A stretch of DNA of 63,994 nucleotides, counting the filler, from Streblomastix strix (lineage: Eukaryota), in assembly GCA_008636045.1 (NCBI GenBank). It is 4 parts of 4 records of this genome, joined end to end, with 100 filler letters (N's around TTAATTAATTAA, not from the genome) between each part and the next. Parts side by side here need not be neighbours in the genome. Positions count along the whole stretch, not along the records: positions 32,317 to 48,366 come from SNRW01000879.1; 3 more parts are not named here. The stretch is one strand, 5' to 3'. The position numbers and the translations under genes were made by a program. Positions 10,242-63,994 of this stretch are shown piece by piece (positions within the stretch are counted from its first letter, which is position 1; each line of letters starts with the position of its first letter). Under the pieces are notes generated by a model, which was not told the origin of the DNA, did not search any database, and saw only the letters and a program-made list of their open reading frames with translations.

Positions 10242-10300
10242 GTATAAAAATAATAAAAACACTATTAATTTATTTTTGCAAATTAGGAAATCATTACAAC

Positions 10301-11170: not shown

Positions 11171-11199
11171 TATCATAAATGTTATACTGTTTCCCGAGC

Positions 11200-12409: not shown

Positions 12410-13420
12410 AATGCCAAAGAAAGGAAAAAGATACATTCAAGTGAGGAATCAAGTGATTTTTTGTCAGAGCATACAAGTAATTCAGAATAAAGATAATATA
12501 TGCGATCAAAAAAAGGGTAAAGATAAATAAATAAGTAGAAGTAAGATCCTACAGCCGTATCAAAAATACTTGATATAATGCTAGCTAAAGGAAAAAAATT
12601 ATGGAAAGGAATGTCAGACGCAGAAAAACACGCTATGGAATAAGAAATTATTATAGCTGATTCTTCAATAAGACCTGTTGACGCATTTGCTGGTGAGTAT
12701 GGATTAAAGGATCGCAAAGCGCGTCGAATAGTTTTTGGCGCAAGATTTCCCAACAGTTTATTGTAAGATTTATACGAGACAGAGTTCAGAGTAACTAGGG
12801 AAGATAGGTTAAAATAAGAAAAATATGTTGAAAATACTGGTAGATTTGAGGAAAACATTAATGTTAGAACTGATCAACCATCCATGAATTTAGGATCGCG
12901 TAAACCAATTAGAACAGAAGAATAATAATTGAATGATATTATGAACTTTGGAAATCCTAGATAGAATTAAAAAGAAAACTAGTAGTTAAATTTGTTGTAT
13001 CCTACGGAATCTTAAGAAGATTTTGGTTAAAGTTCAATATTTTAAAATTAATCACCAGAACAAACTGTTACATAAGAGAAGATAACTGAAAGATAACGTT
13101 AAGCAATTTAGAAAGACATTCATAAATAAGAAAATTTAAATATAGTCTATGGTATTGGTGCTTTAAACTGGAGTAGACTACCAATCAATGATATTCACAA
13201 TAGAAATCCTTTTGAAACCCATAAGACGGGCTACAAATACGGTGTATTAGCAAATATTTAAGCGTATTTAAAGATAGACGCTACAGTTGGAAGTAAGAAA
13301 CAAACAAAAATGAAGAAAAATTTCATTCTATCATCATAATTAATATCCAAGTCAACTGTTCAAGATAAATTAGCTTAAAAACTCTACGGAAAACTCATGA
13401 AAAAGAAAGTTAAGAAATGA
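12410..13420 (+). pseudogene. Hypothetical viral protein with basic termini
   Basis: MPKKGKR start with an early frameshift, then a long open frame (KKLWKGMSDAEK...KLYGKLMKKKVKK) to TGA 13420. Confidence 0.55.
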
Positions 13421-14704
13421 AAAATCCACCCTCAATAACCACCGTTAAAAAACCACTCTTCAAAGAAGTTTTCCGAGCGTAGATTGGCAAACATTTAGTT
13501 CGCAAGTTGCGAAGCAATCTTTATTGTGAAATACTAAAAATTCATAAATATTATTTTTGAAATTCTATTTTAAAATCATACCCCCCAAAAACCCTATTTT
13601 TGGAAATAAAAGACAAAAATAGCAGAAAGTCCTTAAATTTTAGAACGTGCATGGTATTTCATTATCCCGACCATCGTCCCTCATCCTCTTTCCTCAAATC
13701 ACCTCCTCCACCTCCATCACCTCCGTTATTACGATTTTATAAATCCCCCAATTACCACATTTAATTTTTAACCTTTTCTTACATTAATTTCTATAACTTT
13801 TCATTAATTCCCTAATTAATAATTAATTTCATAATAATTCATACTTGCCGTGAATGGCGCCATTTCTCCCTTCTTCTATTCATATCAAGATATTTGTACA
13901 TAAAGATATGTATGAAATTTAGATACCAATATTTAGCGTTATTCAATAAAAAGAATGCAACTTACAAAAGCAACTAGAAAGATAAGTGATGATACATTCA
14001 ATTATGATGATGAAGTTATTGATGAAGCATAATATAAGGTTAGTTAATCACCTAGACAGTTCAAATGTAATAAACCTCTTCAAGAAGCCGTATTGACACT
14101 AAACAATAGCAAGTTTTGGTGTCACAATTTTGCATATTACATTCTCTAATAATATATTGATATGGATAGGGTTCATTTCTGTCATATAGATACTGATTCA
14201 ATGTATTTAGCTATTGCAGATTCCTAAATAGAAGTGTAAAAATAAAAATTGAGACGTGACATTAAAGATTAAGAGTTCTTTGACTAACACAATAAAGAGT
14301 GGCCTCCATGGGACAATTGTACTATTGCCGAAGAGAAGAAATTAATGAGTATCACAACCGAATCATAAGGAGAAAATATCGTTTGTCTCGCACCGAAATG
14401 ATATAGTCTATACAATGGAAATGAATAAAATGATGACATAGTATCATTAGTGAATCGGATGAAAGATGTAAGTGAAAAGACGGCTAATCTAACAACTAAT
14501 GACTATATTAAATGCTTGAATGAGTGAATTAACATTAATGAGACTACAAACAATTAATAGATAAAAATGGGGGGTAATATCTATGATTAGTACTGAAAAT
14601 TCAGCATTCACATGAGTTCATTATAAGATGGATGTATTAGCTAACGGATATTGCGAACCATTTATGTATAGAATTAGTGCATATCATTACTTAATTGAAT
14701 AATG

Positions 14705-14877
14705 ATAAATGATATTGATGATTATTTTTTTAACACAGACAACTATTTTATTCACGCTATTTATACCCAAAAACCTTATGACCAATGTAAGTTTTCATTT
14801 TGCTGTAGGGTTTATTGTTACAAATAGCGTGAATAAAATAGTAGTCTGTGGAAAAAAAAATATTCATCAAATTTATG
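14705..14877. repeat. Long imperfect inverted repeat (hairpin) right after the pPolB stop
   Basis: CACAGACAACTATTTTATTCACGCTATTT (14734-14762) pairs with AAATAGCGTGAATAAAATAGTAGTCTGTG (14822-14850) with one mismatch. Pairing extends imperfectly inward and outward. Confidence 0.85.
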
Positions 14878-14970
14878 AAATTGTCACCAGTCGTGGAGAT
14901 TATTGAGTTTTGTAGGTATTGTCACCAGCTGTGGAGATTATGGGTACAAATAGCGCGGTTAAATTAGGCA

Positions 14971-15059
14971 TTAGTATTGATAGTGATTTGGTGTGGAGAT
15001 TATGGTTAGAAATATCGCGGCTAAATTAAAGCCCTGTGGTGCAGTCCATATATATTATT
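14971..15059. repeat. Right terminal inverted repeat of element B
   Basis: Ungapped reverse-complement match to 42237-42325: 61/77 identities by manual count, plus an identical outer 12 nt (AATAATATATAT). Confidence 0.8.
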
Positions 15060-32719: not shown

Positions 32720-35700
32720 ATGAAGAAATTTTCAAAATAAGAATAACATCATGAACGTTAATTTTAACACAATAATGATATACATAACAGTTAAACATTA
32801 GAAAACTTTCATAAAACACCTGATATATACTTAGATAGTATGTTCAAAACAAATGAAGAAGAGATTGATAAGATGCATTAAAAATATATAAATAGACAAT
32901 TCAATTAAACATAAGAAAATAATGTTATATAACTCTATGCGATGCAGCTGATGAAGTTAAATTTAATGTGATAAAGAATAGAACTCCTTAATGGCATGAC
33001 GAAAATACTTCAATACTAACATTCTCAGTTAATAACAACATCGATCCAAGAGAGAAACTTATAAAGTCATATTATAAGAACCTAGCTAATCTAAATAAAA
33101 TTGAAACATATTTTGATTAAATTTATTGACAAGTGTAGCGTTCTGCATTTAAAATAAGAGCCGAATTTGGTACAATAATTGAAACATCTGAATATGATGG
33201 AAATGAGTAAAGGATTAGCTATAAATACATACTTCTAGTAGATTCAAATACATAAAGAAGCGTTCCATTAATTATAAAATCATAAGAAAATATAGAACGT
33301 AATAAACATTATATGTATGATGTTATTGCAAGAATTTAAGAGAGGAAATAAGAAGATATTTATTAAAAATTATTGCAAGATTATCAATAATGATATGGAT
33401 TTATAAATTTTCATTAGCTGATGCAACTATCCCTTCATTTTAGAAACACATCAAACGAAGAAAAGTTTACTATATAGAATGCAAATAGAATCTATCTTTC
33501 TTTTCTGCTTAAAGCTTTATTACAATGCCTAACTCAAATGAAAAAAATGATGGAATGGTAATTCTAGAAGAGCTGAAAGAAAAAGAATATTTAAAAGAAT
33601 TTTTGGAAATAAATTTTATGATCCGTATTAAGGCTTCAATTTTGTTACAGAGATTGATGAATTCATTGATAAAGAATAAATTAATGTGCATGTATTTACG
33701 CATTTAGATAATGATTAATTTCCTATTTTTTACGCTATCTATCCTTATAATTGTGACGCATCAGAAAGAGACTTTAATGGGCTTCTCATAAATAATGGGA
33801 TAATTGCTCAAATTTCATATGTTTCTGATGTCTAGGCATAAACTGGATATCATTATTATTAAATAAGTAAGTTATAAGCGTTTAATACATCAAATCCTAA
33901 TATAAATAGAGATATGATGAGATAAATGGAAAAATGTAAGAAAAATAATGGTTAGATTGTTAAAATGCTATCGTAGAGAAATTTGCTAGACTATTCTTTT
34001 CAAACATACTAAATAATATTAGTTACAGATATCTATTTCTGAATAGTAAAAAGATTGAATTTAAATCAACTGAATATAATAATATTTAGAATATAAAATC
34101 ATTTCAGATATTTGTAACGTAAAATTTTTGTGAAGATTCAATGTTTGAATCTTCTTTCATTCCTTATTGCATTGCATCAACAGTAAAGAACAAATCTAAT
34201 ATCCGTTCATTCCGCTATGATATTCGATAGGCTAACTTTTTGGATTAATAGTTAAATTAGGTATTTGAAGAAGCGAAGTAAATAAATAAAGATAATAAAT
34301 CTGAATACGAAAGTATACCACAACTTTTTGAAGTTCCAGTAATAGGTTTAAATTCAACTAAGTTTGATGTATCATTAGTGGTTAAGAATTTGAAATCAAA
34401 GAATTGGAGAATCATTAAGCATATAGCTAGTGGAACCGTTACTAAATTGATAATTGTTAGACATAATGAAACACATTTTTAGTTAAGATTCGTTGATGCA
34501 ATGATCTATTGTAATAAGATGGGGTTTAAGAAAGTTATTCTAGATATTGAAAGCGCATCAATGCAAAAAGGTAAATTTCTTCACTAATATATCAATTCTA
34601 ATAACTATACTACTGAAATTAATAAATCGGAATCATTTTATGGAGAAATTTTCGAGAATAAATTAAAGATTAAATCAAAAAATTAAGAGAAATATAAAAA
34701 GAATCTATTCAAAGCAGCAAAGTTAGCAATTAGATGTGATTAAGCAAGGTCTTATAATATACAGAACTCACGTGTTATGATAAAGCCTTTAGATAATTTA
34801 ATCAAAATGATAATAAAATATAAGATAGATATGCCTGCTATATTTAGTATGTCTTAATGCGCAATGCTATAAAATATTCTAGTGAATACGATGACTTTAA
34901 AATGAATGGATATTATAATATAGATGATTCTGATGAATATATTAATATAACTACGTTATTGGACTACTAAGGTTGAAAGTTATATTAAATAAGTTATAGA
35001 AAAAGAATCGAGATTCAAATAATAATGAAACCATTGATGATTATGAATATTTTAAAGAATTATTCGAAAAATAACGATGTTATATCTGTAATAGTAAGTT
35101 TTCAAGGAAAAATCGTCCTACGTTAGATTGAATCTATATGGAATTGTGCCATCCGTAAAATAATGTACTTCCAAGCTGTTCGAATTTTAATAAGAATAAG
35201 TGTGATAGAAATGAAAAATAAAAGAAACAAAGGATATAATTAAGGAAAAATTGTTTAATGAAACAATTACCAATATCATTAACAAATTAAGATGCTTATT
35301 AAATAATTAGAAAAGATATTACAGGTGGATTGAATAAAGTGTTGCATCAATATAATGTTGCGGGAGATACAAGGATCAATCATCTAGAATAGTCAGATAA
35401 AAAATATATTCAATTTATTCAGAAAATGTAATGACACATGCGATTTAGCTAGATTTTGATAGTTAATATGCATCAATAATGAATTCATAAATGCATCCAT
35501 TCATCCTATTCATTTGTCATAAGATGTGTATGTGTGGATAAGTATTTGAATATACAATTGATTTGTATAGATGTAATGGCACAATTTACAATTAAAATAG
35601 ATTTACAGAAAATGAAGAAACATGCTAATCTATTCCATTATTCATAGCATAAGTTCGTCGATTCATTGAAGATAATTATATTATTATAGCATTAATTTCC

Positions 35701-36815
35701 TTCCAATTATCAGAAATATTAATTTAATGACTAATGAAGAAACTATTGGAATATATATATATATATATATATAAATCTAGATGATAATAACTCTCCAGGA
35801 GATAAAATAGAAAGAAAGTTAACAAATATAGTCGATATGCATAACGAATTAATTTCAATCTAATATTATTATTTATGGTTATTGATAAATAACATTCATT
35901 TTATTATTATAGTTGAGAATTATTCGGTTATTTCATTCAGTAAAATTGATAAATTTAATTGATTCGGTAAAGATTTTATGCCGTAGTGTGGTGATGCTAA
36001 AGCGTAGAAGAATGATGGGGTTGCAAAATTCTGTGAACTAATTTTAAATTCAGATTTTGAAGGAATTTAATTGAATAATGAAAAATATAGAAATATTAGA
36101 TTATATGATGATGAACACACATTCTAATTGATTCATTTTAATCGTACTATAATGATACAGAAATTGCAGATAAATTACATGCAGTTTAAGTGGATTCTGA
36201 ATATTGTAGGTGTAATAACTGTTTGTAAGTAGGATATTTCACATTAGATTCTGCAAAGTATTTATATATTAATTTCATATATAATTTCTTGTGCAAAGTG
36301 TTCGATTAAACGAAGATGCATATTGTTTAATTGAATACCGATAGTTTGACATATTCTATAAGTGGTGATAAAAATAGAGATCCTGAATAATTATTTGATG
36401 CAATAATTAAAGATATTGATTTCTATTATAAAATAAAAGATTCTTCCTAAATGAATATAATTAGAGAAAGATATTAGGTGTACTCATTGAAAAATAAGGA
36501 TTAAATTGCATTGCATTAAGTCCTAAGAATTATATCATAAATGATGAGTGCGGTGATGTATCACTAGTGGTTAAAAGTATTATTTTTAGATAGAATCCTT
36601 AGATAAATGAATAGACATTTGTGGATAATATTAAATCAGGAATTGAAATGAAAATAATTAATATAATACTCGCATAAAAGAATAAAATAATGAGCAAGTT
36701 GCCTATGATTAAAAATGGTATATCAGGATCTTTGACTAAAATGATAATATCAGAGAATCAATCTTGTTGTCCATAAATGAATAATATGAAAGCCTCAGAT
36801 TATTAAATTAAATAG
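32720..36815 (+). pseudogene. Full-length pPolB with HNH insertion, heavily decayed
   Basis: ExoII GLNSTKFD (~34345), HNH remnant CYICNSKF...PTLD*I (~35078-35135), motif A LDFDSQYAS (~35450), motif B remnant ELILNSDF (~36035), motif C LNTDSL (~36330), ALSPKNY (~36513). Confidence 0.9.
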
Positions 36816-36936
36816 TAATTCTATTATTTTTATTTTATCGAAAACAGAAAATAAAAGAAACAATATAACGAGGTTAATGTACAAAATAATGATATATAAT
36901 GAATAAATGCAACACGATCTATTAGTGATTTATCGA

Positions 36937-38620
36937 TGCAACCATAACTAATGCTTGAAAGATTAGATAAATTAGAGGCAAAATTAAAAACAAAAATTAG
37001 TAAATAGCGATAATAATCTAAGTTGGAATGACTAAAATAGAATATTAATAACAGAATAATAGATTCATATATTGAAAATATATCATAAAATAGAATATAT
37101 AACGTATAAGAGGATTTTTATGAAGCTTGAAATAATTATATGGAAAATCTAGAAGAGAAATTCGAGAAGATTAACCATTGAATGATTTATTATTATCTAT
37201 TGAAACGGCATTTGAATCAATATTTATACGATTATGCACTAATGTTACTTTTGCTATTGAAGCTTTTGAATCATTGCACAAAAAATGGAAAGGTATTTGG
37301 AAAATTATCTATGAAGCAGGTATCAAATATGCATATGAATCAAAATTTTGTAGATGATCTACTATTGATACACTTAGTTATTTTTGAAGTTGAAATATAA
37401 AGTGCTGGTGATATAGATTATACAGATTATAGAATGATTCTGATTATAGAATATCTTGGTCAGATTCATTAGCCAATGACATTATCTGTATTCATTAGAA
37501 ATATGCGCATAACTAGAAGTAAAAATGAAACATAAGAATAAAAGAAAATGCAGATATAAATAAATATGAAAGTAAGTTAATAGAATAGAGAAATTAGATA
37601 TATTGAACAGAAATATAGAAATATAATGTATCAAAGCGTTAATTATTACTTAAATATCTTCAATCAACTCTTAAATTAGAGAATTGGACAGTAATTAATT
37701 CTCACTAACTAATATAGAACAAAGAAAAAATATGCTTTATAAAATTAAATATAAAATTATTAATTGAAGCCTTTAAAGAGATTTCAAAGACCATACTTTA
37801 GTCCAAAGTTAGGATCATATGAAATTGATCTTGCATTCTCATACGATACAATCAAACATAGAGAATAAATATACTTATTTGCAATTAATATTATTATAAA
37901 ATATCTAGTATTTATATATCAATAATTGATAAGTCTGCAATTCAATTAAAAAATATTTTAATTAAATTATTTAATTCATAATATGTTAATAATATTAGAT
38001 CGGATGGAGAAATAGCATTGATAGATAAGGTAATTAAGAAATTCAGCTAAGATAATAATAAATCTTTATATTTCAATTCATCTCTATTTACAAACCATAA
38101 TAAAGCAGTGGATGGAGTTATTTGAATAATTAGAAAAGGATTTTGAGAGGATAATAGTTCGATGGCTAATTATAATTTAATGAAATATATGGTTGTGATA
38201 TACAATAACAATAAAAAAGTCGCATTCAATAATAAATATACTCCGTAATAAGTTCATTAATCCAGAGATTTAAAAGACATATTGATACGATATTAATTGA
38301 AATAATTGGATATAATTAAACAATAATAATAGTCAAAACATCTATAAGAATTCAATATTGGAAATATAACTATGATACATCTTGATAATGGAAGAATAAA
38401 AATAAAAACTTCAATAATAAGAAGAAATTTCAATGAATTAGCAACACTCATCACTTATAAGAATGGGAATGAGATATGTAAATTATTAAAATCAAATGAA
38501 CCAATCAGTTATGTAGAGCTATTTATACATTATTCTAAATTCATTAGTGATGATATAAATTCGTTACCGGCAAATTATAAAAGTTAATTTAATATAAAAA
38601 ATTGAGATATTTATAAAAAG
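36937..38620 (+). pseudogene. rve integrase with D-D(35)-D triad and N-terminal extension
   Basis: GSYEIDL (D 37827), NIRSDGE (D 38003), NHNKAVDGVI (D 38111), YNNNKKVAFNNKYTP, and a C-terminal RRNFNELA...NGN shared with the element A integrase. Start is approximate. Confidence 0.8.
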
Positions 38621-38627
38621 TAAATAC

Positions 38628-39039
38628 ATGCAATCATTGAAACAAAACAAACCCGTAAAATATTAGTAAAGAAACCAGTTCTGTAATTTATTGAAAAATA
38701 ATCTAGTCCAATTGATGACGTCCTTCATGCACAATTAATCGTTCAGACTCCTATTAATAATACTCCTTTTATTTAAGTTAAATCGGAACAGAAAAAAAAG
38801 AATCTAGTGGTAGAATTAAAAAGTATAGTAGCTCTGAAGAAGCTGATAAATTTGCTGCAGAGTAACATCAACATGTTTAATAAAAATATATAATCTATCG
38901 ATAAGATTTTAGAACAAAAGCCAATGATTTGGAATTAATTTTGATTCGACATCTTCAGAAAATTATTATAACTAACGTATAGGATTTAATTAAAATTTGC
39001 GCAATAATTGATCGTTATAACTAATCAAATAATCAATGA
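38628..39039 (+). pseudogene. Small helical protein homologous to 2945-3337
   Basis: KYSSSEEADKFAAE...HLQKIIITNVQDLIKICAIIDRY, in the same position after the integrase. Confidence 0.55.
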
Positions 39040-39229
39040 ATTCACTTTACGCAAAACTAATGATTTTATGATTTATTTTGCAACTAAAATGAGTGGTAAT
39101 GGAGTGCATTAATGAATGCGTAAAAATCGCATATATCAATGAGATTATTTATCCAAGAGCATCGAATGCATTGAATTAAAAAATGTATTTCATTTCATAT
39201 GTGCTGAAGCTACTCGAAATAACATTAAA

Positions 39230-39804
39230 TTTTCCAAGTTCATCGAGTGCATTTTATGCATTGAATTATATGATCTACACAAAAGTTATTGCCAAATTAT
39301 ACATAATGCCATTAGATTTCTGCTATATATCCTATACTAATATTCCATGTCTCTAATTAATAATATTAACTCATGTATGTTAATGACGCCATATTCAATT
39401 TCAAAAGCTTCGACTCGATGCATAGGGACATTTAACATTAATTCATCATGATTGTAGAATAGGATTCAATAAATTCAATCACTACAATAATTATCTTAAA
39501 AGTGCATTAATTATTTTTTGAGCAATACATTCAATTGCCATAATGGCTGCACACAAAATGACCTATATTATTATATTCATTAGCCTATCAAATTAATACG
39601 GTGTATAAAAAGCAGAAATCTAATGGCAAAATAGTTAATATAGCAGCAATTTCATATATCAGCTTATGATTCAATGCACTCAAAGCATTCGATGAACATG
39701 GATAATTCACTTCATTTATCCACAGCGTTAGCACGTCACATTAGCTATAATTCTTCGTCTCGATGTACATGGACATTTAACATTAATTCTTCATAGTTGT
39801 AGAA
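39230..39804. repeat. Interleaved inverted and direct repeats in a non-coding interval
   Basis: Inverted arms ~39233-39330 and ~39603-39702, including a perfect 18 bp pair (39307-39324 / 39611-39628). Direct repeat of ~52 bp at 39408-39459 and 39753-39804. Confidence 0.85.
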
Positions 39805-39819
39805 CAAAAATAAATTCCA

Positions 39820-42236
39820 TTAATTTTATACATATTCATTTCCATCATTCCGTATCTTTTACTCAATTTATTCTTTAATCTCATCAGCTTCTTCATCTAA
39901 GATATTTTTATAAATTGATATCATTTTTTCTTTCAGTTAACTGATAATTTAACGTATTCCATCAGTTGGATTCTATGTTCTTTCATATGTATTTTTGATC
40001 GCTAATTAAAAATTTTTTAATTTCATATCAAATAGTTTCCAACCATCAAAAATATTGCAAGTAACTCCACCTCTAAATGATTTGAAATGAGTGGTAATTA
40101 TTTCATCAACAGGTGAGATTGATGCACGGATTATTTCTTACTTTGCTTAGGTCATTGAGATGTTTCTTAGAATAAGCTAAGAAATATCTTTAGCCATAAA
40201 GAATTAGAATAAATTTTAGAAAATATCTTCATTATAACTATTGCACAAATTAGTGAAGTATGTTGTTTATCCAAGATGAACTGAATTATATTTGCATACA
40301 ACACATCGTCTATTATTATTCTCTATTTTTAATGGAAAGATATTATTTGTAACGATTAATATATTTATTGTGTTCTCTACTTTATGCTTAGGAACATATT
40401 TCTTATATATCTCAAATAAACATTAAGTATATATTAATTTAATACATCCATATTTAACATTCTCGATTCTCCAAAATTCTTCATTTCATTAGCAATTGCC
40501 AACATCTTATTCTCAATAGCAGTATTGAATTTATTTACTAAGTTGTTGATATCAGTTACAGTTTTAGATGAATTTCCAGCAAAAAATTTGCATGGAACAT
40601 TAGTGAATAAATTCTTACTAATACTTCATAACCTTTGAAGTATAATCGATGTTTCAATATTTTTCCAACATTCTACACAATAAATGAAAACCAATTTAAT
40701 AAATATTTATAAATCAATTCATCATTCGCTGCAATAGTGTCTTTTACTGATCCAAAAAATTATTCTATTTTTATCTAATTCGTTTCTTCAAACTATATAT
40801 ATTTGAATCCCTACAATATATTGAATATATCTTGATTGTTACTAATGAATTTCATACCAATCTTCTCATATAATGAATGAAAATATTCTAATGCATCAAT
40901 TGCGGTGATATGCTTCATTCGATCTTTTCACAATCTAATTGAACGCAATTAATCATTTAAAATAGTCTTAAATTAATAATTCATAGTAATTTTTTCAATC
41001 GTACAATCGTATTTTGAATGATGTAACATCATCTGTTTTAACAAAATGCAACTTTACTTACCTTAAATAAACCTTATACAACTTAGTCTAATTTATTTTT
41101 CATATTTTCATTTAATGCTTTACTGGATATACTTATTAATGTGAATGAAACTTTTAAATCAATTTCATATTTCTCAATTTATTTAACTGTATCCAAAATT
41201 TTCTATCATTTTCTAATTTCATAATTCTTTTTCAATAATAATTTAATAGTCTATTCAGATTAATCATTATGATGACATCTTAAGATATTTGTTAGAATCC
41301 TTGAATTAGTTTTGTGCTCACCATCGCTCATGGCTTATTCAAAATTCTTATCAACATTTGCAGATAGCTTATTATATTAGAATATATAATTAATTCCTTA
41401 TAATCTAATCTATTCATTAATGATTCCATATAATCTACAGAATATACTTAAAGGAGATACTTCCAAATTTATTGGTAAAGGAAAATTATGAATTTCTAGG
41501 TTCTTCAATCCATTAACACATCTTTATGCAAATTAATCATTTATTTATTTAATACTTCAATCATCTGAAATTTATTTACCAAATTTTCTATCATGCTGCT
41601 ATTATACATATTCTTGATGTAATTTCTCAATATCGACATTCAATTTATCAAGAATATCTCGTAAATTCGCTAAAATAGATTAATTTTTCCAACTATTAAT
41701 CGCTTCGTATTTGAGTGACTTTCATTTATTATTCTTTTTTCGAATTGATATATTTGGAGCAACAACTCAATTCTAAACTGTTTCTTTAATAACTTTTCTA
41801 TTTTCTATTTTATATAAATTCATTTATGCAAACACATCAATATCAAAATTCTCTCTTATGATTATTTTTATATTATGATTGGATAATAATCTATAATAAT
41901 TTCTATTGCAATATATGTGTAATCCATCTTGTGCAGTTTTAACTAATCCTACATTAACAGGATGCATATTATTTATTATATTTTATCATATTTATCAGTA
42001 TCTTCTATTAGTAATTTCTTGTTAATATCAAAGTCAATAACGCATAGATTATCGTCATCCATTAATGATAGATCAACTAATTTGCCTGAAATTTATGATT
42101 TATTACCTTCTTATTATCCTATTTTTGTGTAGTTCACTGTTTTAATCATTGCGTCCTTTGCATGTTCAATAACTGTTTTATCATCTTATAATTGCACATA
42201 CAATTCTCCTAATGGTTATATTGATTCAACAAAAAG
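39820..42236 (-). pseudogene. AEP primase-polymerase fused to a D5-like SF3 helicase
   Basis: LCVIDFDIN (DxD), VGLVKTAQDGLHIYCNR (His motif), VVAPN. Then NWFSFIVQN, a decayed Walker A, KFNTAIENKMLAIANE, TNNIFPLKIENNRRCVV. Frameshifted, and the 5' end abuts the element B TIR. Confidence 0.85.
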
Positions 42237-42325
42237 AATAATATATATGGACGGAACCAGAGAGCACTAATTCTGCCGCGTTATTTGTAACCATAATCTC
42301 CGCGCCAAATGACTTTTATTACTAA
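42237..42325. repeat. Left terminal inverted repeat of element B
   Basis: AATAATATATAT-GGACGGAACCAGAGAGC...GTAACCATAATCTCCGCGCCAAAT, the reverse complement of 14971-15059. Confidence 0.8.
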
Positions 42326-42328
42326 GCT

Positions 42329-42572
42329 CAATTCATCAATGTGATGCACTTATGATGTGGATAATTCTATGTAAATGTCTATGACTCAAATTATCACAAT
42401 TCATCAATGTGATATACAAATGATATTGACAATTCTATGTAAATATCTATGAATCAAATGAACACAATTCATCAATGTGATGCACTTATGATGTGGATAA
42501 TTCTACGTAAATGTCTATGACTCAAATGAACCAAATTCATCAATGTTATGTGTAAATGATATGGATTATTAT
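42329..42572. repeat. 68-bp subterminal tandem repeat, ~3.6 copies
   Basis: Units start at 42329, 42397, 42465 and 42533 (xAATTCATCAATGT...). Units 1 and 3 are nearly identical, giving an alternating A-B-A-B pattern. Confidence 0.92.
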
Positions 42573-42884
42573 TTAAAAATTATTCAAAAATATTAAAAAT
42601 TATTTGAAAATTTAACGAATTATTTTCAAAATTTATGAAAAAATTTAACAATTTTAACTACTAATTTCTTCACTGACTAATAGACCAATTATATCAATTA
42701 CTTATATATATAGTCTATATCACTACTTACATCACTAATATGTATAGTAATTATAATAGTGTCGTAGGGTTGTGTGTTAAAATAGTATGAAATAAATTGT
42801 TAAAATTTTTCAAATAATTTCAAATGTGGGTATACTTTATATATATCAATAATTAAAAATATTATAGATAAAAATAATAAATAA

Positions 42885-43253
42885 TCAATTGCTCGAAGAG
42901 TCAGAATTCAAAGCATTTATGCTATCAACTTTCTTCGGAAAGCCAGATTCGCTGACTGATTTGGAATCAGAATTTTCATTAACACTTTCACTCTAATCAC
43001 TTAACTAATTTATCGCTTATGGTGATAATTCATATTGTTTACAACGGTATAACCGATGTTATGAAATATGATAAACATTTATTTGATTATTTTTATGTAA
43101 AAATTTAAATTCTGGTATAGTAATATATTTATTCGATGTGAACGCTCTTACTGTAGATAATAATTCATAGTTCTTTTTTAAAAATTTACGTAATTCTTTA
43201 ACTGATTTGATTGATGGTATTTATATTAATAGAGACTTTAATTCCTATGTCAT
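42885..43253 (-). CDS. 122-aa hypothetical protein of element B
   Basis: Open frame MTQELKSLLIQIPSIKSVKELRKFLKKNYELL...DSSSN then TGA. Divergent from pPolB across a 76-bp gap. Confidence 0.7.
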
Positions 43254-43329
43254 TTATTAAAAAATAAAAATATCAAATTGCGCCAAAATCTCGCAAAAGA
43301 ATTTATTCAGTTTTTTACCTTTTCATAAA

Positions 43330-46300
43330 ATGGCAGAGAAATACAGGATGAGTAAATAATAGATTTAAAACCTACTAGATCAATTATAAGTTCAATATTT
43401 ACCTAATTATACTTCAGTTGAATTAAGAAATATGCTAACAAATGAATTGCATCGTTTGAATTATTAAGGTCATATAACTATTACAACTGAAATTGTAGCT
43501 TTTGTAAATCAAATTGTTGCTACAAGAAATGAACAACAGTAATAATAATTAGAATAAGTTGATCAATAACAATAACCTTAATTACAGCCATTAATTGAAC
43601 CAGTTAATGAATAGTAATAATAATTGAATAATGATTAACAATAACCTCAATTAACTACAAGTATTGATGATATCATAAACGATTTGAATTAATCTGACAA
43701 TTCAGATGAAGATCTATTCAGTCCTGATAAATACGGAGCTAATTACAAATAAAAATTTGAAGAAAGTGGTAGAAGATAGCGTATGTAATAATTGATACAA
43801 GCATAACAATAAATCACTAACTAGATACATTAATCGCAAAAGTCATTATAATCAATAAATGATATTTTAAGAGAAGAATTTGATTTGGAAGAATAGATTC
43901 AATAGCCAAAAGAGATTAATGAGAATTATAAGTAATTACTAGCTGATCAATAATTGAAACATTAATAAGAATTAGATTAATAAGAATAGTTACATCAATA
44001 AGAGATACAAGAATTGAAGGATAAATTAGAGAAATAGAATAAAGCAGCTATACTAATCCAAAAACATTATATAAGGCACTTAGCATAATAACTAATGAAG
44101 TAGTCAGTAAATGCTGCTAAAGTGATTTAAGGCAAATAGCGAACGCATAAGCTGTACGAAAAATTAGAATAGATAATCATCAATTAAAGATATAAGAGAT
44201 AGGGTGAAAAACCATTTAGACTACTCAGCTATTTGGAAGCAAAATTAGGAGCTAAAGAATTCAATAGAAGGGTTAAAAAGCTTAATGATGAGTATTATGG
44301 ATTACATAAGGATCATTTTAATGAACCAAATATAACAAAAACACAATAATTAAATAAAAATAGAGAACTCGAATAGAAAGAATTAGTTATCTTCACTCCA
44401 TAGAATTTATCAGCTTATTATGCCGCATTAGCTCAGGCACGCAAGAGATATTAAGAAAAGAATGAAGTCAATATTGAAGGTCTATCTGATGAGTTAATGA
44501 GGTCAAAAGATATACTCAATAAAGAACCATATATCTAATACTATTACAATCATTTCTATGACATATAGCAACTGAAAGTTAAAATCGACTTAGTATATGA
44601 GTTAGAGAAATCTAAACCCTATAAAGTATACATTGATTTTGGATCTATCTGGTAGAAAAAGAAACAAGTCTACAAGCATTAACAAACATTAGATGAGTAT
44701 CATTACACTCACACAGGTCCAAGTGCTGATAACAGTTACAAGGCTCTATCTAATACAGTAGTTCGAGATAAACAAACTAATGACTATTTCAAACAGAAAG
44801 ATGTTGACTTACTATCAGATTATTAAGACACAACTCATGAAGATTCAGCAACATTAAAGGTAGCAATATATTCGGTTTTGATTATTGTTTATAGACTACC
44901 ATTAGGGACTAAAATGGATAAAATATGTTAACACTTTAATAAGGAAGGTATTACTAGGGATATCGATTGTGAATACAATATTTGTTGGTTTTTAGTCGCA
45001 TCATTTGCTTTATATCCTGAGATTGATAATAATAAGAGTAGAGTTAGTGATGCTATTAAACTATTTCTCTAATACCATGACATTAATCCCTCTAGTAAAT
45101 TAAATAAGGTTAATAAATAATTATTCGAATAATATAAAGGATTCAATTTAGTTACTGATCTTGAAAGATATCAACAAATATCCAAACTAAATGTAATTAC
45201 ATACACATGTAATGAGATGAAACATAAAATCAACAGTAGAGATGTTGAATAATTCAGTAAATTTGAAGAATATATTATTGACAAGGACAATCTAACTGTT
45301 AATGTATTATTAGTGTCATTGTCATTTGTTGATGAAATCCATGCGATGTATATTAGTGATATAGATAAAGTTATTAATGGAAAACTCTGTCCACGCAACT
45401 GTTAGATGATATTTAATATTAAGAACTAACATTATAAGTGCGATCTTGTAAGGCATTTGAAATATTGTTAGGGTACTGAGACAGCCAAATAAGTTAAATT
45501 AGATCATTTATCAAAACCATATTATCCACATATATCAAATAATAAGTTACTCTAGAAATTAGTAGCAACAGCCTAATAAGAACTGTTAACTGCTACATTT
45601 AATTACATTACATTTGATTTTGAAACAGTAGAGAATATAATTAATGGTGTGGATAACTTAATTGCTTAATTAGAGCCGTTATCTGTAGCATTAGCAGCAA
45701 CAATAAATGACTAAATTACGACGTTATATTTTGATTTACGAAATGGAATTGATTTTATTGAATAATGGATAAGTTAATTGTTTGAAGTTGCTATTAAAGT
45801 TAATGAAGCTAATTAATCGAATATGCATGATATAACAATTGATGATAAGCATTACATTCCATATAAACCCCAAGTGTCTGTTACTGGATTCAATTCTAAG
45901 AAGTTCGATATGAATTTGTTACTCAAACATCTAATTAAAAATAAGACTAAAATTTAATATATGGGATCAACAACTTAAGCTAAATAGACTGTAGTATCAC
46001 ATTAGGATTATGAATTTGACTTGAGATTTATCGATATTTTATCATTCATTCCACCAAACAACACATTAAAGTAGTTTGTTGAGAAATTTGGTACTAAAGG
46101 TATAAAATTAACAAAGGGTATATTTCCACATGGTTCATTCAATTATGAAAACTATAAATAGGTGTTAGGGCTAACAACTCCATTTACTAAAGATGATTTC
46201 TATAACAAACTTAATAATAAGAATATTAGTGACGAAGATTATGAATAGTATTGTAATGATTCAATCAATTTTGAAAGTAGATGGGAGTATTTAAAGCATT

Positions 46301-48366
46301 ATAATATCAGGGATGTTACTTGTATGATTAACCCAATCAATCATCTTATTCGAATTACATGGGAAGAGAAAGTTGATATGTTAGGGTGTATATCATTAGC
46401 TCAAATTGCTAGTTAAATTAAATACAAGTACTGTTATGATAAATTCGATATCAATGCAAGTTATAATATAGTTAATGGATTTGAATAATTTGAAGTCACT
46501 TAATACTGGTGGAATAACAAAGTCAAAGAATATATTAATCAAGATGAGTTCGCTAAGAGGGATACAACCAATAATGTTACTGAGGATGATTTTGAATGGA
46601 TTAGAGATAAAGTAGCTAATAAAACATGCCATCTATGCCACAACAAATTCACTAAAGAAAACAAACCTACTTTAGACAGAATTGATAATTCAATTGGTCA
46701 CATAAAATAGAACTGTTAACTAGCTTGTTAAATATGTAACACAGTTAAGGCTTATAAAGATAATGATATTAGTAAATTAAAGATATAATTAATGAAATAT
46801 GCTATCCATGAACATCTGCCTATGACCATTAATAATGAGTCTGTATATAATATGTTAAAGGAATGTATGTAAGGTGGACAGTCTAATGTGTATCATTAAT
46901 GCAATTTGAAAGGTATCACACACATCAACAAGCTTAGATATAACCACGTTACTAAAACAATAGCATCATATGATAATTAGTATGTTGTTACTCACATCCT
47001 TGATTTAGATTTCAACTCTCTCTATCCAAGTGTATTTAGTGGAATAGTCAACAAAAATAACCCTTACACAAATAATCGAATATATCAAGCTGGTGGATTA
47101 ACTAACTATTTCAAGCGCACATCTAATAATTCAAAATAGAAAGCTCGTGATATAATTATGAGCTCAGATCGATACGCTGACAAAGGGTAACTGTTCTGTG
47201 TTCGTATTAATGGTCATATTGATGAAAAACATATTAATTCACACATAAATTTAGCACCGATATGGAGGAAATTAACATATAACAATTCAATTGAATAGAT
47301 TGGAGAATTTATGTACAATAAGATGAAATCATAGGGATTAACTGTTAACAAACCTACTACAAAACTAATATCATTGCTATCAACGCACAATCAATAAATG
47401 TGTTTCACTAGTTATATTTTTTGGTTTTTGATTGACTATTGTAATTTAATTATTGATGACATTGATTCAATAGCCATATTTGATAAACACCTAGGTTTTG
47501 AATCATTTGCATGTACAATGATGGCTAAGAGATAGGATGCAATTAGCCAACACAATGATACAAAATCGCTATACTACAAATAGATTCTAAATAGTGCTTT
47601 TGGAGGAGAAGGATAAAATAATGCGAAATTTGATAAGATTTAATTCAACAATGCTAGACAGGCATCGCTCAAGTAATTGAAACAAGATCATAAGGCAACA
47701 AGAAAATTAAGTGATGATATATACAATTCTGATGGAAGCCTTAGTGAAGAGGCATAATATATGGTTAGTGAGTCACCTAGATAATTTAAGTGTAATAAGC
47801 CATTGCAAGAAGCTGTGTTCACTCTAGACAATTGCAAGTTTTGGTATCTAAATTTCGTATATAACTTTCTCTATAAATGTGTTGATATGGATAGTGTTCA
47901 CTTCTGTAATATGGATACTGACTCAATGTATTTAGCTATTGCAGGATCATAAATTGAAGGTTATAAATAAGGATTGAAGTATGTAATCAAAGACTAACTA
48001 TTCTATGACTAACACTATAAAGAATGGTTGCCTTGGGGCAATTGCACTGTTGCTGAAGAGAAGAAATTAATGGGGATTACAACTAAGTCAAAGGGTGAAA
48101 ATATCGTTTGTCTTGCACCTAAATGTTAAAGTCTATACAATGGAAACGAACAAAATGATGACATAGTTTCATTAGTGAATCGCATGAAAGGAGTCAGTGA
48201 AAAGGATGCTAATCTAACAACTAATGACTATATTAAATGCTTGATTGAAGGATGTAATATCAATGTGACAACTAATAATTTATAGATGAAAATGGGAGTA
48301 ATGTCCATGATTAGTATGGAAAAATCATCACTTACTGGAATTCATAATAAAATGGTTGTATTATCT
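43330..48366 (+). CDS. Giant pPolB (>1679 aa): Q-rich coiled coil, two IQ-like motifs, probable terminal-protein and OTU-like protease region, Zn finger, exonuclease, HNH insert, polymerase
   Basis: One frame from ATG 43330 to the contig end. ExoI FDFET (45613), ExoII GFNSKKFD, ExoIII YNIRDV, HNH 46627-46749, motif A DFNSLYPS (47008), motif B KQILNSAFG (47578), motif C DTDS (47914). Confidence 0.95.
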
Positions 48367-49545: not shown

Positions 49546-49714
49546 TCATAATTATACAACAATAAGTTAAAATTATGCCATGGTACCGTTAAACAACCGC
49601 ACTTTAATAAAAATACGTTGAACTCGTTATATATTGCAATATTCTACAATTTATTGAATAATGAATTAATTTTATTTATAATTCATAATGTTGATATAAA
49701 ATTTTGAATAGGCA

Positions 49715-50791
49715 ATGGAAATACTATCACCTGGTGAAGCGTTGTTTGTCAGACAAAGAATCATGAGCGGTATGCGCTGTGATGGTCGAGAGTTATTGGA
49801 GCTACGACCAGTATCTGTAGAAATTGACGTTTTAAAAAATTGTTTAGCTTCGTCTAGAATAAGAATAGGCTCACGCGGCGAAGGAACTGAGGTTCTTGTT
49901 GGGCTAAAAGGAGAAACATATAGGGTTCCTAAAAAAAAAGATGAAGAAAGAACCCTGTAAACTATTTACCCTCCGGTGGAAGTGTCAGTCAATTTTTTAC
50001 CAGGAGTAGAAGCTGCTATACTCACTCCAAGTATGCGTGTGCAAACGCTTGATAGTAGATATACTGAACTATCAGGGATAGAAAACAATACATTGCCATT
50101 TGGATCATCATAATAGAGCATTGATGGTGTAGTCAGTGATGTAAGCATATCAGCTGATACAGCCCCAGGTATCAGTAGCACTTCTAGTACATAAGATGTT
50201 GAGACTATGCTTTAATCACATTTTAATGCTATATTCAATTCTGATCGAGTTAATCGTTCTGAGGATAAGAAAGGCCCTTTGGCAATTGATGAAATGGACT
50301 GCGAATGGAAATTGTTTGCAGATGTTGTTGTAGTAGAATATGCTGGCTCGCTTATAGAAGCAACTTCTATGGGTATCTATGCTTCACTTAGTACACTTCG
50401 TTTGCCTGTTCCTGTAATTAATCCAGAAGAAAAAAATAATACAGAGGAAGAAGAAGGAGAATCATTTATTCTTTCTCCTTTTGCAAGAGTAGATCATATT
50501 CCAATCTCAGTATCATGTTTTGTAATGAATTCAGACAAAGGAACTCATTCAGATCCACTGATTTATATTGATGCTGACACAAAGGAAGAAGCTTGTGCAT
50601 CTGCTAAACTCTTATATAGTACAGCATAAAATGGAGAAATATACTATGCAGAGAAGGTTCATGGTGATGGCTGTGTTAGTTTGAAGACATTTAGTGTGGC
50701 ACGAAGAGTTTCTCGGGAAAAGGCGCAGATTCTTGCAAGTAAAATTAACTAGGCACTTCACCAACGAACTGGAGAGGGATCGACTCATTGA
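49715..50791 (+). CDS. EXOSC7: Exosome complex RNase PH subunit RRP42
   Basis: LSPGEALFV...GMRCDGRELLELRPV...SSRIRIG...TEVLVGLKGE, WKLFADVVVVEYAGSL, IDADTKEEAC. Intronless, 358 aa with TAA/TAG=Gln. Confidence 0.88.
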
Positions 50792-50891: not shown

Positions 50892-53425
50892 TCATTTGTT
50901 AGGTTCGAGTCTAGCTAACTTTTCTTTGAAGAATTATTTAGCATTTCGAACTTTCTCAGGTGAAATGTTGTGAATAGCATCAATTGGCTGAAATGAAAAT
51001 AGATTGAAGTCAAGTGGGATATTGATTAAAGGAGAAAGATAAGGAGGATGTTGCAATTATTTGATTAAGTTACTTTTATTTTCATCATTGAGTCCGTTAA
51101 TATCCAATTATGCTAGAATGTCATCTACAGTTGCATTTTCAAAAATAAAATTCTATTATTCAATATTAACTTAATCTAATTCTTATTATTTATTCCTCTA
51201 ATCAATAGAAATAGACTCATCAGGTATTTCTTCAATTAGTAATTTGCTCTTTTTTAGAATTTCTTTCTTTTGCTAAATATTTTCTTTATCTTAGGTTGAT
51301 GGAAAAGGTGGAATGGATTCATGAAATGAAGAGAAGCAAGTTCGATGATCAGCAAATCCTTCATTAATAATATTTCCATGTTAGTGAATATCTTTTGTTT
51401 TATTCTATTATTCTAAATATGGTAAATGTTACGAAAATAAAACATGAGCAATTGAGCATCCAGATAATGAATAACATGTGTGATAAAGATCCGTATGCGT
51501 AGATGGCTTATCTTTCAGACCACCTGTCCTATCCTGGCAGCATCCTAATGCATATGAAAGAAGTCCTTATGGTTAAAATATTGGACGAATTCGAGGTAAT
51601 TAAAAGTTGAGAGAGAGTTGTTATTATTAAAGATTTAGTGATTAATTTAATTCATCAAAATGAGATTTCACTTGATCATATCTATACATTTTAACATGAC
51701 GATAGGCGGCGAGTTGTTGTTTTTCTTTCTATAGACCTAATTTTGAAGATGTATCTTTTGCCTTATCTTTATCTTTTTCTTCTAAATTTGTTTCTGGCAA
51801 TGAATTTTCAATCAAGAGATTGGAATTTTCGATTGAAAGATTGGAATTATCATCCGATTCATCTGAGTTATTACTATCATAATCAACATATTTATTGTCT
51901 TATTTCTATCCCTCAACATGACTAACATTTTAAGGAATATCGTCCAATGAATTACTTTCATTTCTAGAGAAAAGTAAACTAGTATGTTTTTAATTTTATT
52001 TATTCTTCTTCTTTTTTTGCAAGTTTTGATCTATTTTAATTTAATTTTCTTATTCAACCCAAATATTATAATTATTTCCTCCTTATGATCCAGAGTCTGC
52101 ATCTATTCCAGATTCTTCTCTTTTTCTCCTTTAGTTAAGTTCAGATTCAATTCTCTCTTTTGTAGTTTTAGAATTAATCATTGCATGGAATCTTGTAAAT
52201 TGTGGCTAATTTGTAATATTTTTATCTTTTAATTAAGTTATGCTTTGAAAATCATGCTTCTAAATTTATTAATCTTAATCTATATTTTCCTTCAATTCAT
52301 TTGATTTCAACTATTTAATAAATTCAGTATCTTTGACCAATTATTCAAATAATCCAGCAATTGCACATCCAGCACCTTACCAGAATGAATAACATGTATC
52401 AACAAGCTTTCCTGTTCTTCCACTAAATCCACCTTCTTCTGATCCTTATTATTTAACTAGCCAACGAATCAGTGAAGGTAAATCAAACCCAAGAAAATAT
52501 CCATTTCCATCTTTTAAAGATAAATTTCTATCAATAAAATTCTATCTATCAAAATCATCAAGCCCAGCTAATATCAATTGTGATGCTAATGCGCAATATG
52601 TATATCCACCATGCGCTTCATTCCCAGGTATACCAGCTATTCCTCCTTCGTGAGTCTAACAACGAGATATCAATGCAGATGTTCCAGATGTGATCTCATC
52701 ATCTAAAAGGCCACATAATGAAAGCACTGATAAAGATCCATATATAATACGAGTATCACACTCACTTAGAAATGGTCGTTCAGCAAAAAATAATCCTTTA
52801 TATGAATAATTAGTGTTTGACTTTGGTAATTGTGCCCAATGAGGAATTTGCTATTAATAATTCGTTTTATTTTCTTCTCCAAAATGGTTTCTTCCCAGAA
52901 AGTTTCGAAGTTTTTATAGATCAATTACATCCAATGCTTCTGGGGAATTGAGAATTGTAAGTGCATGTATGCATGCATATGTTGAAAGTACGTGCGATGA
53001 ATAATGAGAATTGCCTCCAAATCCACCAAATTCATTTTATAATCTGGCAATAGATGCAATTAGATATCTCATTAATGGAGAATCTCGACGAACAGAAGCA
53101 CCCATACATTCAAGAGAATGCAACGTCCAAAAGAAAACCTTGATAATTATAATTAAACAAATTAAATTTAAAAACTAATGAAAAATTGCTATACCCAAGC
53201 ACGTGATGCATCCAAGCGTTGCATTGATTTTGGTAGGCCTATCATACTCTTACACAAAAATTTAATGTGCATCAAACGGTTTAATTCAACTCCGTTGGGT
53301 TCTCTAGCAAGTTCCTCTGTTCTTTTTCTTGAAATGTTACTGCGTGTACTCAAAATTTCGCGGAGTGAGTGGGGAAAATTTTCTGTAAAATCACTATTAT
53401 TTCTCTTAAATCGACTCGCTTTCAT
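50892..53425 (-). CDS. FNTB: Protein farnesyltransferase subunit beta with long low-complexity insertions
   Basis: LDASRAW|VFFW (intron 53194-53139), ECDTR, CQTHEGG, EAHGGYTYC, GRTGKLVDTCYSFWQG, GGLKDKP, DLYHTCYSLSG. Confidence 0.93.
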
Positions 53426-59953: not shown

Positions 59954-60028
59954 TTATTTCAAGTCTTGAATAAAGTATTAGAAGAGAATATAAAAAGTAA
60001 ATTAAAAGTAAAATTTAAACACAACATT

Positions 60029-60477
60029 AGAAAATTAATAATAATAAATATAATATATTATACAGTGCAAATTAAAACGCAAATAATTAGCGCTTTTAGT
60101 GAAAAATATATTTGTGTTGTGTTCTTGGACTGTGATATTGGGGGGAATGTTAAATGTGGTGTTATTTTTAGGATGAATATATTTTTGTTTAATTGATTGG
60201 TTAAACATATATTATACTATTCAAATTAAAACAAAAAAGCCAATTTTCTTGAATTTTTTTAATAATCTTATAGAGTCTTTCCAATGTTAAATATTTATGT
60301 TCAAATTATTCGCGCGGTGAATATGTGAGAAAATAAATATGTTTCATAAAAATACTATTTGTAGTCTAATAAATATCGAGGTACATTAATGATTTAATCA
60401 ATTCTGATTGGTATTTGTTTCTTATTCCTATTCTTATTTATTGACAATGGATACGTGTGGTGATGAGTAAATATGCA
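60029..60477. repeat. Direct repeat copy 1 (~450 bp)
   Basis: Near-identical to 63547-63994 (about ten differences by eye). Confidence 0.95.
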
Positions 60478-60961: not shown

Positions 60962-63520
<2,559 letters not shown>

Positions 63521-63546
63521 TAGAATAAGCTTAATTAAATTAAATC

Positions 63547-63994
63547 AGAAAATTAATAATAATAAATATAATATATTATACAGTGCAAATTAAAACGCAA
63601 ATAATTCGCGCTTTTAGTGAAAAATATATTTGTGTTGTGTTCTTGGACTGTGATATTTGGGAGAATGTTAAATGTGGTGTTATTTTTAGGCTGAATATAT
63701 TTTTGTTTAATTGATTGATTAAACATATATTATACTATTCAAATTAAAACAAAAAAGTCAATTTTCTTGAATTTTTTAATAATCTTATGGAGTCTTTCCA
63801 ATGTTAAATATTTATGTTCAAATTATTCGCGCTGTGAATATGTGAGAAAATAAATATGTTTCATAACAATACTATTTGTAGTCTAATAAATATCGAGGTA
63901 CATTAATGATTTAATCAATTCTGATTGGTATTTGTTTCTTATTCCTATTCTTATTTATTGACAATGGATACGTGTGGTGATGAGTAAATATGCA
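63547..63994. repeat. Direct repeat copy 2, runs off the window
   Basis: Near-identical to 60029-60477. Confidence 0.95.

What the first reader, a model, noticed from the sequence alone, without database searches (positions are those of the whole stretch)
42237..48366. Candidate new minimal mobile element: TIR - small ORF - giant pPolB with HNH nuclease - TIR, without integrase or capsid
Seen: a TIR at 42237-42325 is followed by 68-bp repeats, a 122-aa ORF and one >1679-codon pPolB. A second copy on another contig (13965-15059) shows the pPolB stop followed within ~350 bp by a hairpin and the reverse complement of the same TIR (61/77 identical, ungapped, plus an identical outer 12 nt). Inference: joining the copies gives a ~6.5 kb unit with no room for integrase, ATPase or capsid. 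Known: Polintons are usually 15-20 kb with an rve integrase and morphogenetic genes, while linear plasmids have pPolB and TIRs but are normally episomal. Here both copies are integrated. It could be a self-replicating element that integrates using its own HNH domain, or a satellite mobilised in trans by elements A/C.
Basis: partly seen in the sequence, partly recalled or inferred. Interest (0 to 1): 0.9.

Follow-up and report, generated by a model that had tools for sequence, protein, structure and literature searches.

The report
One-enzyme mini-Polinton in a termite-gut protist
A termite-gut protist carries many inserted copies of a DNA element, inferred from overlapping pieces to be about 6.4 kb long with one large self-priming DNA polymerase gene between inverted ends, which likely is a stripped-down virus-like transposon that copies itself but borrows its way into chromosomes.

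Summary
Largely confirmed, and extended. Under code 6 the polymerase at 43330-48366 is open for 1679 codons, to the contig end. Models show terminal-protein-like, OTU-protease-like and phi29-like polymerase parts; the inserted motif is HNH-type. Close relatives are Streblomastix strix proteins (71-89%).

The terminus at 42237 is real: 32 public contigs leave the sequence there into unrelated flanks, and it cuts a primase-helicase gene at that base (10 of 18 homologs align from 42236). A separate 1702-nt contig shows the polymerase 3' end only 108 nt from an inverted copy of the left end. A near-complete relative sits on a 6375-nt contig; the predicted unit is about 6.44 kb. So there is no room for an integrase or capsid. 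No single molecule with both ends, and no target-site duplication, was seen.

The HNH is not special to this element: 25 of 25 spanning relatives carry it, including gene-rich ones, and it is published for other Polintons. Self-integration by HNH is therefore weak. Best reading: a replication-only Polinton derivative, likely integrated by helper Polinton integrases. Host end-joining, as with fungal linear plasmids, is the main rival. The 122-aa ORF is unproven.

The parts
42237..42325 (+). Left terminus and outer TIR of copy B1; begins with a doubled AAT triplet
   Evidence: 73/89 identical to the B2 right end; 32 contigs with unrelated flanks loose before 42237
42329..42560 (+). 68-bp subterminal tandem repeats (3 full, 1 partial); part of the TIR in B1-like copies
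   Evidence: the inverted copy after the polymerase in an X4 contig includes 42395-42502
42885..43253 (-). 122-aa ORF divergent from the polymerase; coding status unproven
   Evidence: no Pfam hit; no hit; one 84-aa S. strix hit at E 1e-4; several contigs skip 42878-42965, which holds its 3' end
43330..48366 (+). Protein-primed family B polymerase polyprotein, cut by the contig end about 20 codons before its stop
44521..44904 (+). Terminal-protein-like domain (aa about 398-525; little-finger/PAD-like fold)
   Evidence: model; Z 5.7-6.5 to Pol kappa, eta and IV little finger (middling scores); same analogy as in PMC11161782
44914..45360 (+). vOTU-like cysteine protease domain (Cys about aa 552, His about aa 671)
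   Evidence: top hits are OTU domains, Z 8.3; Cys invariant and His at least 90% conserved in alignment A3
46624..46752 (+). HNH-type nuclease insertion within the polymerase
   Evidence: motif; best PDB sequence hit PacI at E 0.023, weak; Pfam HNH in 2 of 24 aligned relatives
39829..42236 (-). Target site: decayed primase-helicase gene (PF19263 homologs) next to decayed element C, cut at 42236 by B1
   Evidence: 10 of 18 homologs align from exactly 42236 at their residues 90-148
13876..14670 (+). Copy B2: 5'-truncated, decayed polymerase end, with an inverted 54-nt piece at the break
   Evidence: differences from B1 by codon position 32/29/71, p = 4e-6
14715..14870 (.). Imperfect palindrome (hairpin) after the B2 polymerase; too long to fit in the X4 contig's right arm, so not general
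14971..15059 (-). Right terminus and outer TIR of B2

Best explanation
This is a multi-copy, chromosomally inserted element of a Streblomastix-type oxymonad, inferred to be about 6.4 kb with one large polymerase gene between inverted repeats, and most likely a Polinton reduced to its replication module that is predicted to copy itself and would rely on the integrase of co-resident full Polintons to insert. Steps: (1) Shown: exact terminus, many unrelated flanks, insertion into another mobile gene, inverted end just after the polymerase. (2) Inferred by joining pieces of different copies: the unit length and the absence of other large genes. (3) Predicted from fold and literature: the terminal-protein domain primes at the doubled-AAT ends, the OTU-like domain cuts it free, and the polymerase copies a linear extrachromosomal form. 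(4) Inferred: origin by loss of integrase, ATPase and capsid genes from a Metamonada Polinton, with the HNH inherited rather than newly gained. (5) Untested: integration in trans by a helper integrase. B1 itself is probably a decaying copy.
For: Terminus: 32 X1 contigs are loose before 42237, median 254 nt, consensus agreement 0.43, so the flanks are unrelated. 10 of 18 primase-helicase homologs align from exactly 42236 and none extends past it.

Right end: one X4 contig (1702 nt, depth 59.8) holds polymerase 47745-48365 at record 1080-1699 on one strand and left-end 42395-42502 at record 864-971 on the other, 108 nt apart. It continues through the terminal motif into a flank of at least 255 loose letters. 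One X1 contig has a 42565/48363 opposite-strand joint with a short side of 33 nt. B2 has the same order.

Left arm: it is shared by many X1 contigs; one covers 43173-43472 across the polymerase ATG at depth 264.

Length: the predicted unit is 6438 nt. P0046 (1653 aa, aligning from B1 residue 35) lies on a 6375-nt contig, leaving 1311 nt against 1338 nt predicted for both arms.

Family: 19 annotated proteins in 9 clusters at 71-100%, one of them the window's own. They form one clade with support 1.0 and 100. Third codon positions differ most between B1 and B2.

Domains: phi29 polymerase at E 9e-15; OTU at Z 8.3.

Polinton origin: relatives lie next to an A32 ATPase (L006) or an integrase-like gene (L003; A and C in this window). 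The doubled AAT end parallels the doubled AGT end of vertebrate Mavericks (PMC8097293).
Against: No single record spans both ends, and no whole genome was available, so the unit is joined from different copies. P0046's contig is known by length only.

The linking contigs come from one sample (X1 = X4) that may be the source of the assembly. The two other studies hold pieces of the element, but no TIR-polymerase joint was listed for them (tables cut).

No target-site duplication was seen. No TIR similarity to A or C was found in the window, though their ends could not be located. 340 loose-end rows were not shown, so the share of trimmed ends is unknown. Fungal linear plasmids integrate whole without an integrase (PMC1864894), so exact ends do not prove a helper.

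The tree is unrooted and the positions of A and C are unstable, so the direction of gene loss is inferred. The gene next to the polymerase in A, C and L003 has no Pfam integrase hit; calling it an integrase rests on my recall of the DDE motif layout. B1 has 64 private substitutions, including in conserved motifs.
Confidence: 0.5

Rival explanations
1. Same 6.4-kb architecture, but it is a nuclear linear plasmid (invertron) derived from a Polinton. It would persist mainly outside chromosomes and be captured at DNA breaks by host repair, with no integrase involved.
For: The gene content matches linear plasmids, which arose from polintons by losing the capsid module (PMC11161782). pAL2-1 and kalilo plasmids integrate without an integrase, and half of the pAL2-1 copies were complete (PMC1864894). 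B2 is truncated with an inverted piece at the break.
Against: At least 32 junctions fall on one base. Contigs cannot show free ends, so an episomal form is neither seen nor excluded. Integrase-like genes occur in the two neighbouring decayed elements.
Confidence: 0.25
2. An autonomous one-gene transposon: the polymerase's own HNH domain cuts host DNA, and the replicated linear element is joined in at the cut.
For: The HNH motif is well kept in most B copies. It is the only endonuclease-type domain found in the unit, and the family spread to many sites.
Against: The same HNH is in 25 of 25 non-B relatives spanning the region, including ATPase-bearing L006 and decayed C. It is also in integrase-bearing nematode and oomycete Polintons (10.1101/2023.08.22.554363). 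Its presence therefore needs no integration role. The 32 flanks share no consensus in the 30 letters shown. HNH nucleases cut but do not do strand transfer (established knowledge).
Confidence: 0.1
3. B-type polymerases mostly belong to ordinary gene-rich Polintons, and the short unit is an illusion from joining different copies or a minority deletion product.
For: No molecule with both ends was seen. Distant relatives are in gene-rich settings, and 0 of 9 with both polymerase flanks show a TIR pair. Two TIR subfamilies exist.
Against: The TIR lies 1.09 kb upstream of the polymerase in B1, and the left arm is shared by many contigs. The TIR follows the polymerase in B2, in an X4 contig and in an X1 contig. 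The 6375-nt contig of P0046 fits the predicted arms within 30 nt.
Confidence: 0.15

Closest known systems
Polintons/Mavericks, Metamonada group (T. vaginalis Mavericks; S. strix endogenous viruses in PMC10120064)
   Same: TIRs, chromosomal insertion, a doubled-triplet end motif, and a terminal protein-vOTU-exonuclease-polymerase polyprotein. The polymerase core is 35-45% identical to relatives, several of them in gene-rich settings. Host code 6 is used, as reported for S. strix EVEs.
   Different: About 6.4 kb against 13-25 kb (10.1101/2023.08.22.554363) or about 10-28 kb in T. vaginalis (PMC12289875). No room for integrase, ATPase, protease or capsid genes.
Nematode/oomycete pPolB2 Polintons with an HNH insertion (10.1101/2023.08.22.554363)
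   Same: HNH inserted in the polymerase; PacI is the nearest solved relative in both cases.
   Different: Those elements are full Polintons. The paper calls the HNH unique to oomycete and nematode pPolB2, whereas it is general in this metamonad-associated clade. Whether the two insertions share an origin was not tested.
Fungal linear plasmids (cytoplasmic pGKL type; mitochondrial pAL2-1 and kalilo)
   Same: Capsid-less, integrase-less, with TIRs and a pPolB. Cytoplasmic ones share the terminal protein-vOTU layout (PMC11161782); mitochondrial ones integrate whole (PMC1864894).
   Different: B sits in many chromosomal sites and has no RNA polymerase gene (their RNA polymerases are recalled, not checked). 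No free form has been shown.
Transpovirons
   Same: Linear, capsid-less elements with a polinton-derived replication protein that depend on a larger virus (PMC11161782).
   Different: Their protein lacks the exonuclease and carries a helicase, and they parasitise mimivirids. B keeps a full exonuclease-polymerase and sits in host chromosomes.

Membership tests
Polinton/Maverick | Protein-primed family B polymerase with terminal-protein and vOTU domains | tested here: met
   phi29 polymerase E 9e-15; OTU Z 8.3 and little-finger-like Z about 6.5, the latter middling; motifs
Polinton/Maverick | Terminal inverted repeats (100-1500 bp) | tested here: met
   about 200-270 bp from an X4 contig; shown across different copies, not in one molecule
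Polinton/Maverick | Retrovirus-like integrase within the element ('by definition', start of the abstract of PMC5499653) | tested here: not met
   left arm 1093 nt with no match to the L003 integrase-like protein; right arm about 245 nt; rests on joined copies
Polinton/Maverick | Capsid, packaging ATPase and protease genes; 13-25 kb length | tested here: not met
   unit about 6.44 kb, of which 5.1 kb is the polymerase; longest other open frame is 196 codons
Polinton/Maverick | 5-8 bp target-site duplication | not testable with these tools
   no copy with both flanks was available
Non-autonomous Polinton derivative (helper-integrated) | Terminal sequence shared with an integrase-encoding family in the same genome | tested here: inconclusive
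   only the two B ends match in the window; the ends of A and C could not be located
Linear plasmid (invertron) | pPolB plus TIRs, without capsid or integrase | tested here: met
Linear plasmid (invertron) | Free linear DNA with 5'-bound terminal protein | not testable with these tools
   only contigs were available, and they cannot show molecule ends
HNH-bearing pPolB | Two CxxC pairs around a DR..N..H..N core inserted in the polymerase | tested here: met
   PacI E 0.023; Pfam HNH in 2 of 24 aligned relatives but not in B1 itself; activity untested

The most novel reading that the evidence does not exclude
The smallest self-synthesizing transposon: one polyprotein primes, processes and copies the element, and its HNH domain opens the host chromosome for insertion, with no integrase from any source.
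Probability: 0.1. Interest if true: 0.9.

Novelty: new variant of a known kind. Interest (0 to 1): 0.66.

Why it matters
Current models derive cytoplasmic linear plasmids from polintons by loss of the capsid module (PMC11161782). This element looks like an independent, nuclear case of such reduction that also lost the integrase, yet it spread to dozens of chromosomal sites.

At least two surveys could not have seen it: one required five core genes within 20 kb (10.1101/2023.08.22.554363), and one started from capsid genes (PMC10120064). Similar polymerase-only elements may be overlooked elsewhere.

It offers a one-gene system for asking whether the pPolB polyprotein is enough for Polinton replication, what the HNH insertion does, and whether Polinton integrases act in trans.

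Tried and rejected
Whole genome: none held, so no assembly-wide BLAST.

Collections: viral contigs gave nothing with the protein, with the alignment (563 pattern hits, 0 relatives) or with a TIR motif. The metagenome scan covered 14 of 64 parts and returned only distant relatives. L022 (E 3e-4, in a bacterial chromosome) was dropped as spurious.

Expression: no RNA holder was listed, which says nothing about expression.

Pfam: no family for the B1 polymerase or the small ORF.

Capsid gene in A: a two-sequence profile from putative capsid genes of L002 and L006 found none in A or C. Those two had no Pfam hit either, so a capsid gene in A is not shown here.

TIR pairs in distant relatives: 0 of 9 loci with both flanks (L020 scored 66 against a null maximum of 64, in low-complexity sequence).

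Trees: a full IQ-TREE run timed out. FastTree on 39 rows and a fast IQ-TREE on 22 of the 39 rows were used instead.

Depth: the TIR core is deeper than the polymerase in X1, but I did not use this as evidence because the tool warns that contig depth is not copy number.

Hairpins: B1's left arm does not fold notably (z 0.1 and -2.3). The B2 hairpin was rejected as a general feature.

Other searches: no tRNA in the window. Three look-ups of earlier findings were empty. Literature searches showed no report of this element or of a pPolB-only nuclear element. The library lacks most subscription papers, and Repbase was not searched.
Full report
SETTING. The window is four contigs joined by N-linkers, with GC mostly 20-30%. 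Long frames appear only under code 6. The closest named homologs of the polymerase are Streblomastix strix proteins at 71-89% identity, and the best-holding run is a termite-gut metagenome. The host is therefore inferred to be this oxymonad. No whole genome was held. I call the copy at 42237-48366 B1 and the one at 13876-15059 B2.

OBSERVATION. B1's first 89 bases match the reverse complement of B2's end without gaps: 73 of 89 identical, the first 16 of 16, score 117 against 33 +/- 4 in 30 shuffles. The motif occurs nowhere else in the window. Three full 68-bp repeats and a partial one follow. The polymerase frame 43330-48366 is open for 1679 codons and is cut by the contig end; relatives run about 20 residues further. 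B2 is an 81%-identical, 5'-truncated piece with two in-frame stops, followed by a strong hairpin and the TIR.

THE END IS A REAL ELEMENT END. In run X1, 32 contigs leave the sequence before 42237 into flanks of median 254 nt that agree at only 0.43 (909 contigs laid, 340 loose-end rows not shown). Independently, the DNA left of 42237 is a primase-helicase gene on the minus strand. Of 18 homologs, 10 align from exactly 42236 at their residues 90-148. Two more start within 15 nt, six are annotated from an internal Met, and none aligns past 42236. B1 is thus an insertion into another mobile gene.

THE UNIT IS SHORT. One X4 contig (1702 nt, depth 59.8) carries polymerase 47745-48365 at record 1080-1699 on the minus strand and left-end 42395-42502 at record 864-971 on the plus strand. 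It continues through the terminal motif into unrelated flank. Only 108 nt separate the two blocks, about 63 of them the end of the gene. An X1 contig shows a like joint, 42565/48363, with a short side of 33 nt. The left arm is shared by many X1 contigs, one of which crosses the polymerase ATG at depth 264. The sum is 1093 + 5100 + about 245 = 6438 nt. The near-complete relative P0046 lies on a 6375-nt contig, leaving 1311 nt for arms predicted at 1338 nt. Limits: no record spans both ends, P0046's DNA was not seen, and X1 and X4 are one sample that may be the source of the assembly. X2 and X3 (other studies) hold pieces across the element but no listed end-to-polymerase joint.

THE PROTEIN. 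Residues 761-1679 model well (pLDDT 83) and match phi29 polymerase (E 9e-15) and viral pPolBs. Residues 381-760 (pLDDT 73) hold a little-finger-like domain (Z 5.7-6.5, middling) and an OTU-like domain (top hit Z 8.3) with conserved Cys and His. This is the terminal protein-vOTU layout described in PMC11161782. Exonuclease and polymerase motifs are intact across most of 12 family members. B1 has 64 private changes and an altered KxY motif, so it is probably decaying. B1 and B2 differ at 32, 29 and 71 sites by codon position (p = 4e-6), which indicates past selection on the protein. The HNH motif is present (best PDB sequence hit PacI, E 0.023). It occurs in all 34 of 39 rows that span it, 25 of them outside the B family, and is degenerate in C. 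It is therefore clade-wide. The 122-aa ORF has no Pfam hit and one 84-aa S. strix match. A single frame of that length stays open by chance about 2.6% of the time, and there are many possible frames. Several contigs skip its 3' end. It remains unproven.

RELATIVES. B proteins (19 members in 9 clusters) form one clade with support 1.0 and 100. P0015 is their sister. A and C are only 33-34% identical and unstably placed (unrooted). Distant relatives in metagenomes and genome bins often have further genes beside the polymerase: an A32 ATPase in L006 and an integrase-like gene in L003 that also matches A and C. The integrase label is from recalled motif layout, with no Pfam hit. None of 9 loci with both flanks has a TIR pair around the polymerase. 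The short form is so far confined to the B family, and B is not a recent deletion of A or C.

MECHANISM. Shown: exact ends, many sites, inverted repeats and the domain set. Inferred: protein-primed replication of a linear copy from the doubled-AAT ends (compare the doubled AGT of vertebrate Mavericks, PMC8097293), with vOTU releasing the terminal protein. Integration is the open step. I favour a helper Polinton integrase (0.5) because the junctions are exact and the ends are Polinton-like. Capsid-bearing elements are also abundant in S. strix: PMC10120064 reports them, and its Table S1 row gives 820, which I read as capsid-gene hits although the header was not shown. Host end-joining of a plasmid-like form (0.25) has precedent in pAL2-1 and kalilo (PMC1864894). 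Own-HNH integration (0.1) is weak because integrase-bearing Polintons keep the same domain. An illusion from joined copies (0.15) is not excluded without long reads.

COMPARISON AND NOVELTY. The element replicates like a Polinton or linear plasmid but fails Polinton membership on integrase, capsid module and size. Plasmid membership needs a free form that I could not test. Nine literature searches showed no description of it.

Papers seen as passages only: PMC10120064 (plus a term search of its three supplements, one cut when stored), 10.1101/2023.08.22.554363, PMC11161782, PMC12289875, 10.64898/2026.06.19.733378, PMC6431247, PMC1864894 and PMC8097293. PMC5499653 was seen only as the start of its abstract in a listing. 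Unread supplements (T. vaginalis Maverick classes; the bioRxiv tables) and Repbase could hold similar short elements.

VERDICT. Real, and a new variant of a known kind; interest 0.66.

Noticed in passing
window 1-13400: Decayed element A: polymerase 3' half (8-1562) and an integrase-like gene (2112-2924, 30% to the L003 protein), followed by further broken genes. A capsid gene was not demonstrated.
   Followed up: partly
window 33000-42236: Decayed element C: frameshifted HNH-bearing polymerase (about 33040-36800), integrase-like gene (37776-38578) and the primase-helicase that B1 interrupts. B1 has no frameshift over 5 kb, so it is probably the younger insertion.
   Followed up: partly
window 13876-13929: The B2 copy is 5'-truncated, with a 54-nt inverted piece of its own polymerase at the break. 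Unexplained.
   Followed up: no
P0015, P0051: A second S. strix polymerase family (51% in the core) is sister to B (support 0.999 and 99.9). Its element structure is unknown.
   Followed up: partly
P0021: A 1978-aa relative whose C-terminal extension has, by eye, a primase-like motif, suggesting a polymerase-primase fusion.
   Followed up: no
L017-L021: Relatives of this eukaryotic-type polymerase (best segments 32-41% identical) sit in bacterial genome bins, probably as misbinned gut-protist DNA.
   Followed up: no
L005:4690-5370: A polymerase fragment lies at the end of a contig whose other ORF looks, by eye, like a vertebrate Eph-receptor exon. Possibly chimeric or contaminated.
   Followed up: no
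L009:3164-3303, L011:10221-10308, L016:3884-3956: Imperfect palindromes of 70-140 bp, like the B2 hairpin, occur in three related loci.
   Followed up: no
window 60026-60477 and 63544-63994: A 452-bp direct repeat at 97.6% identity in the fourth contig.
   Followed up: no
window 22398-24242, 49658-50788, 50895-53285, 61892-62941: Ordinary host genes: ZZ/RING finger protein, RNase PH exosome subunit, prenyltransferase and kinase.
   Followed up: no
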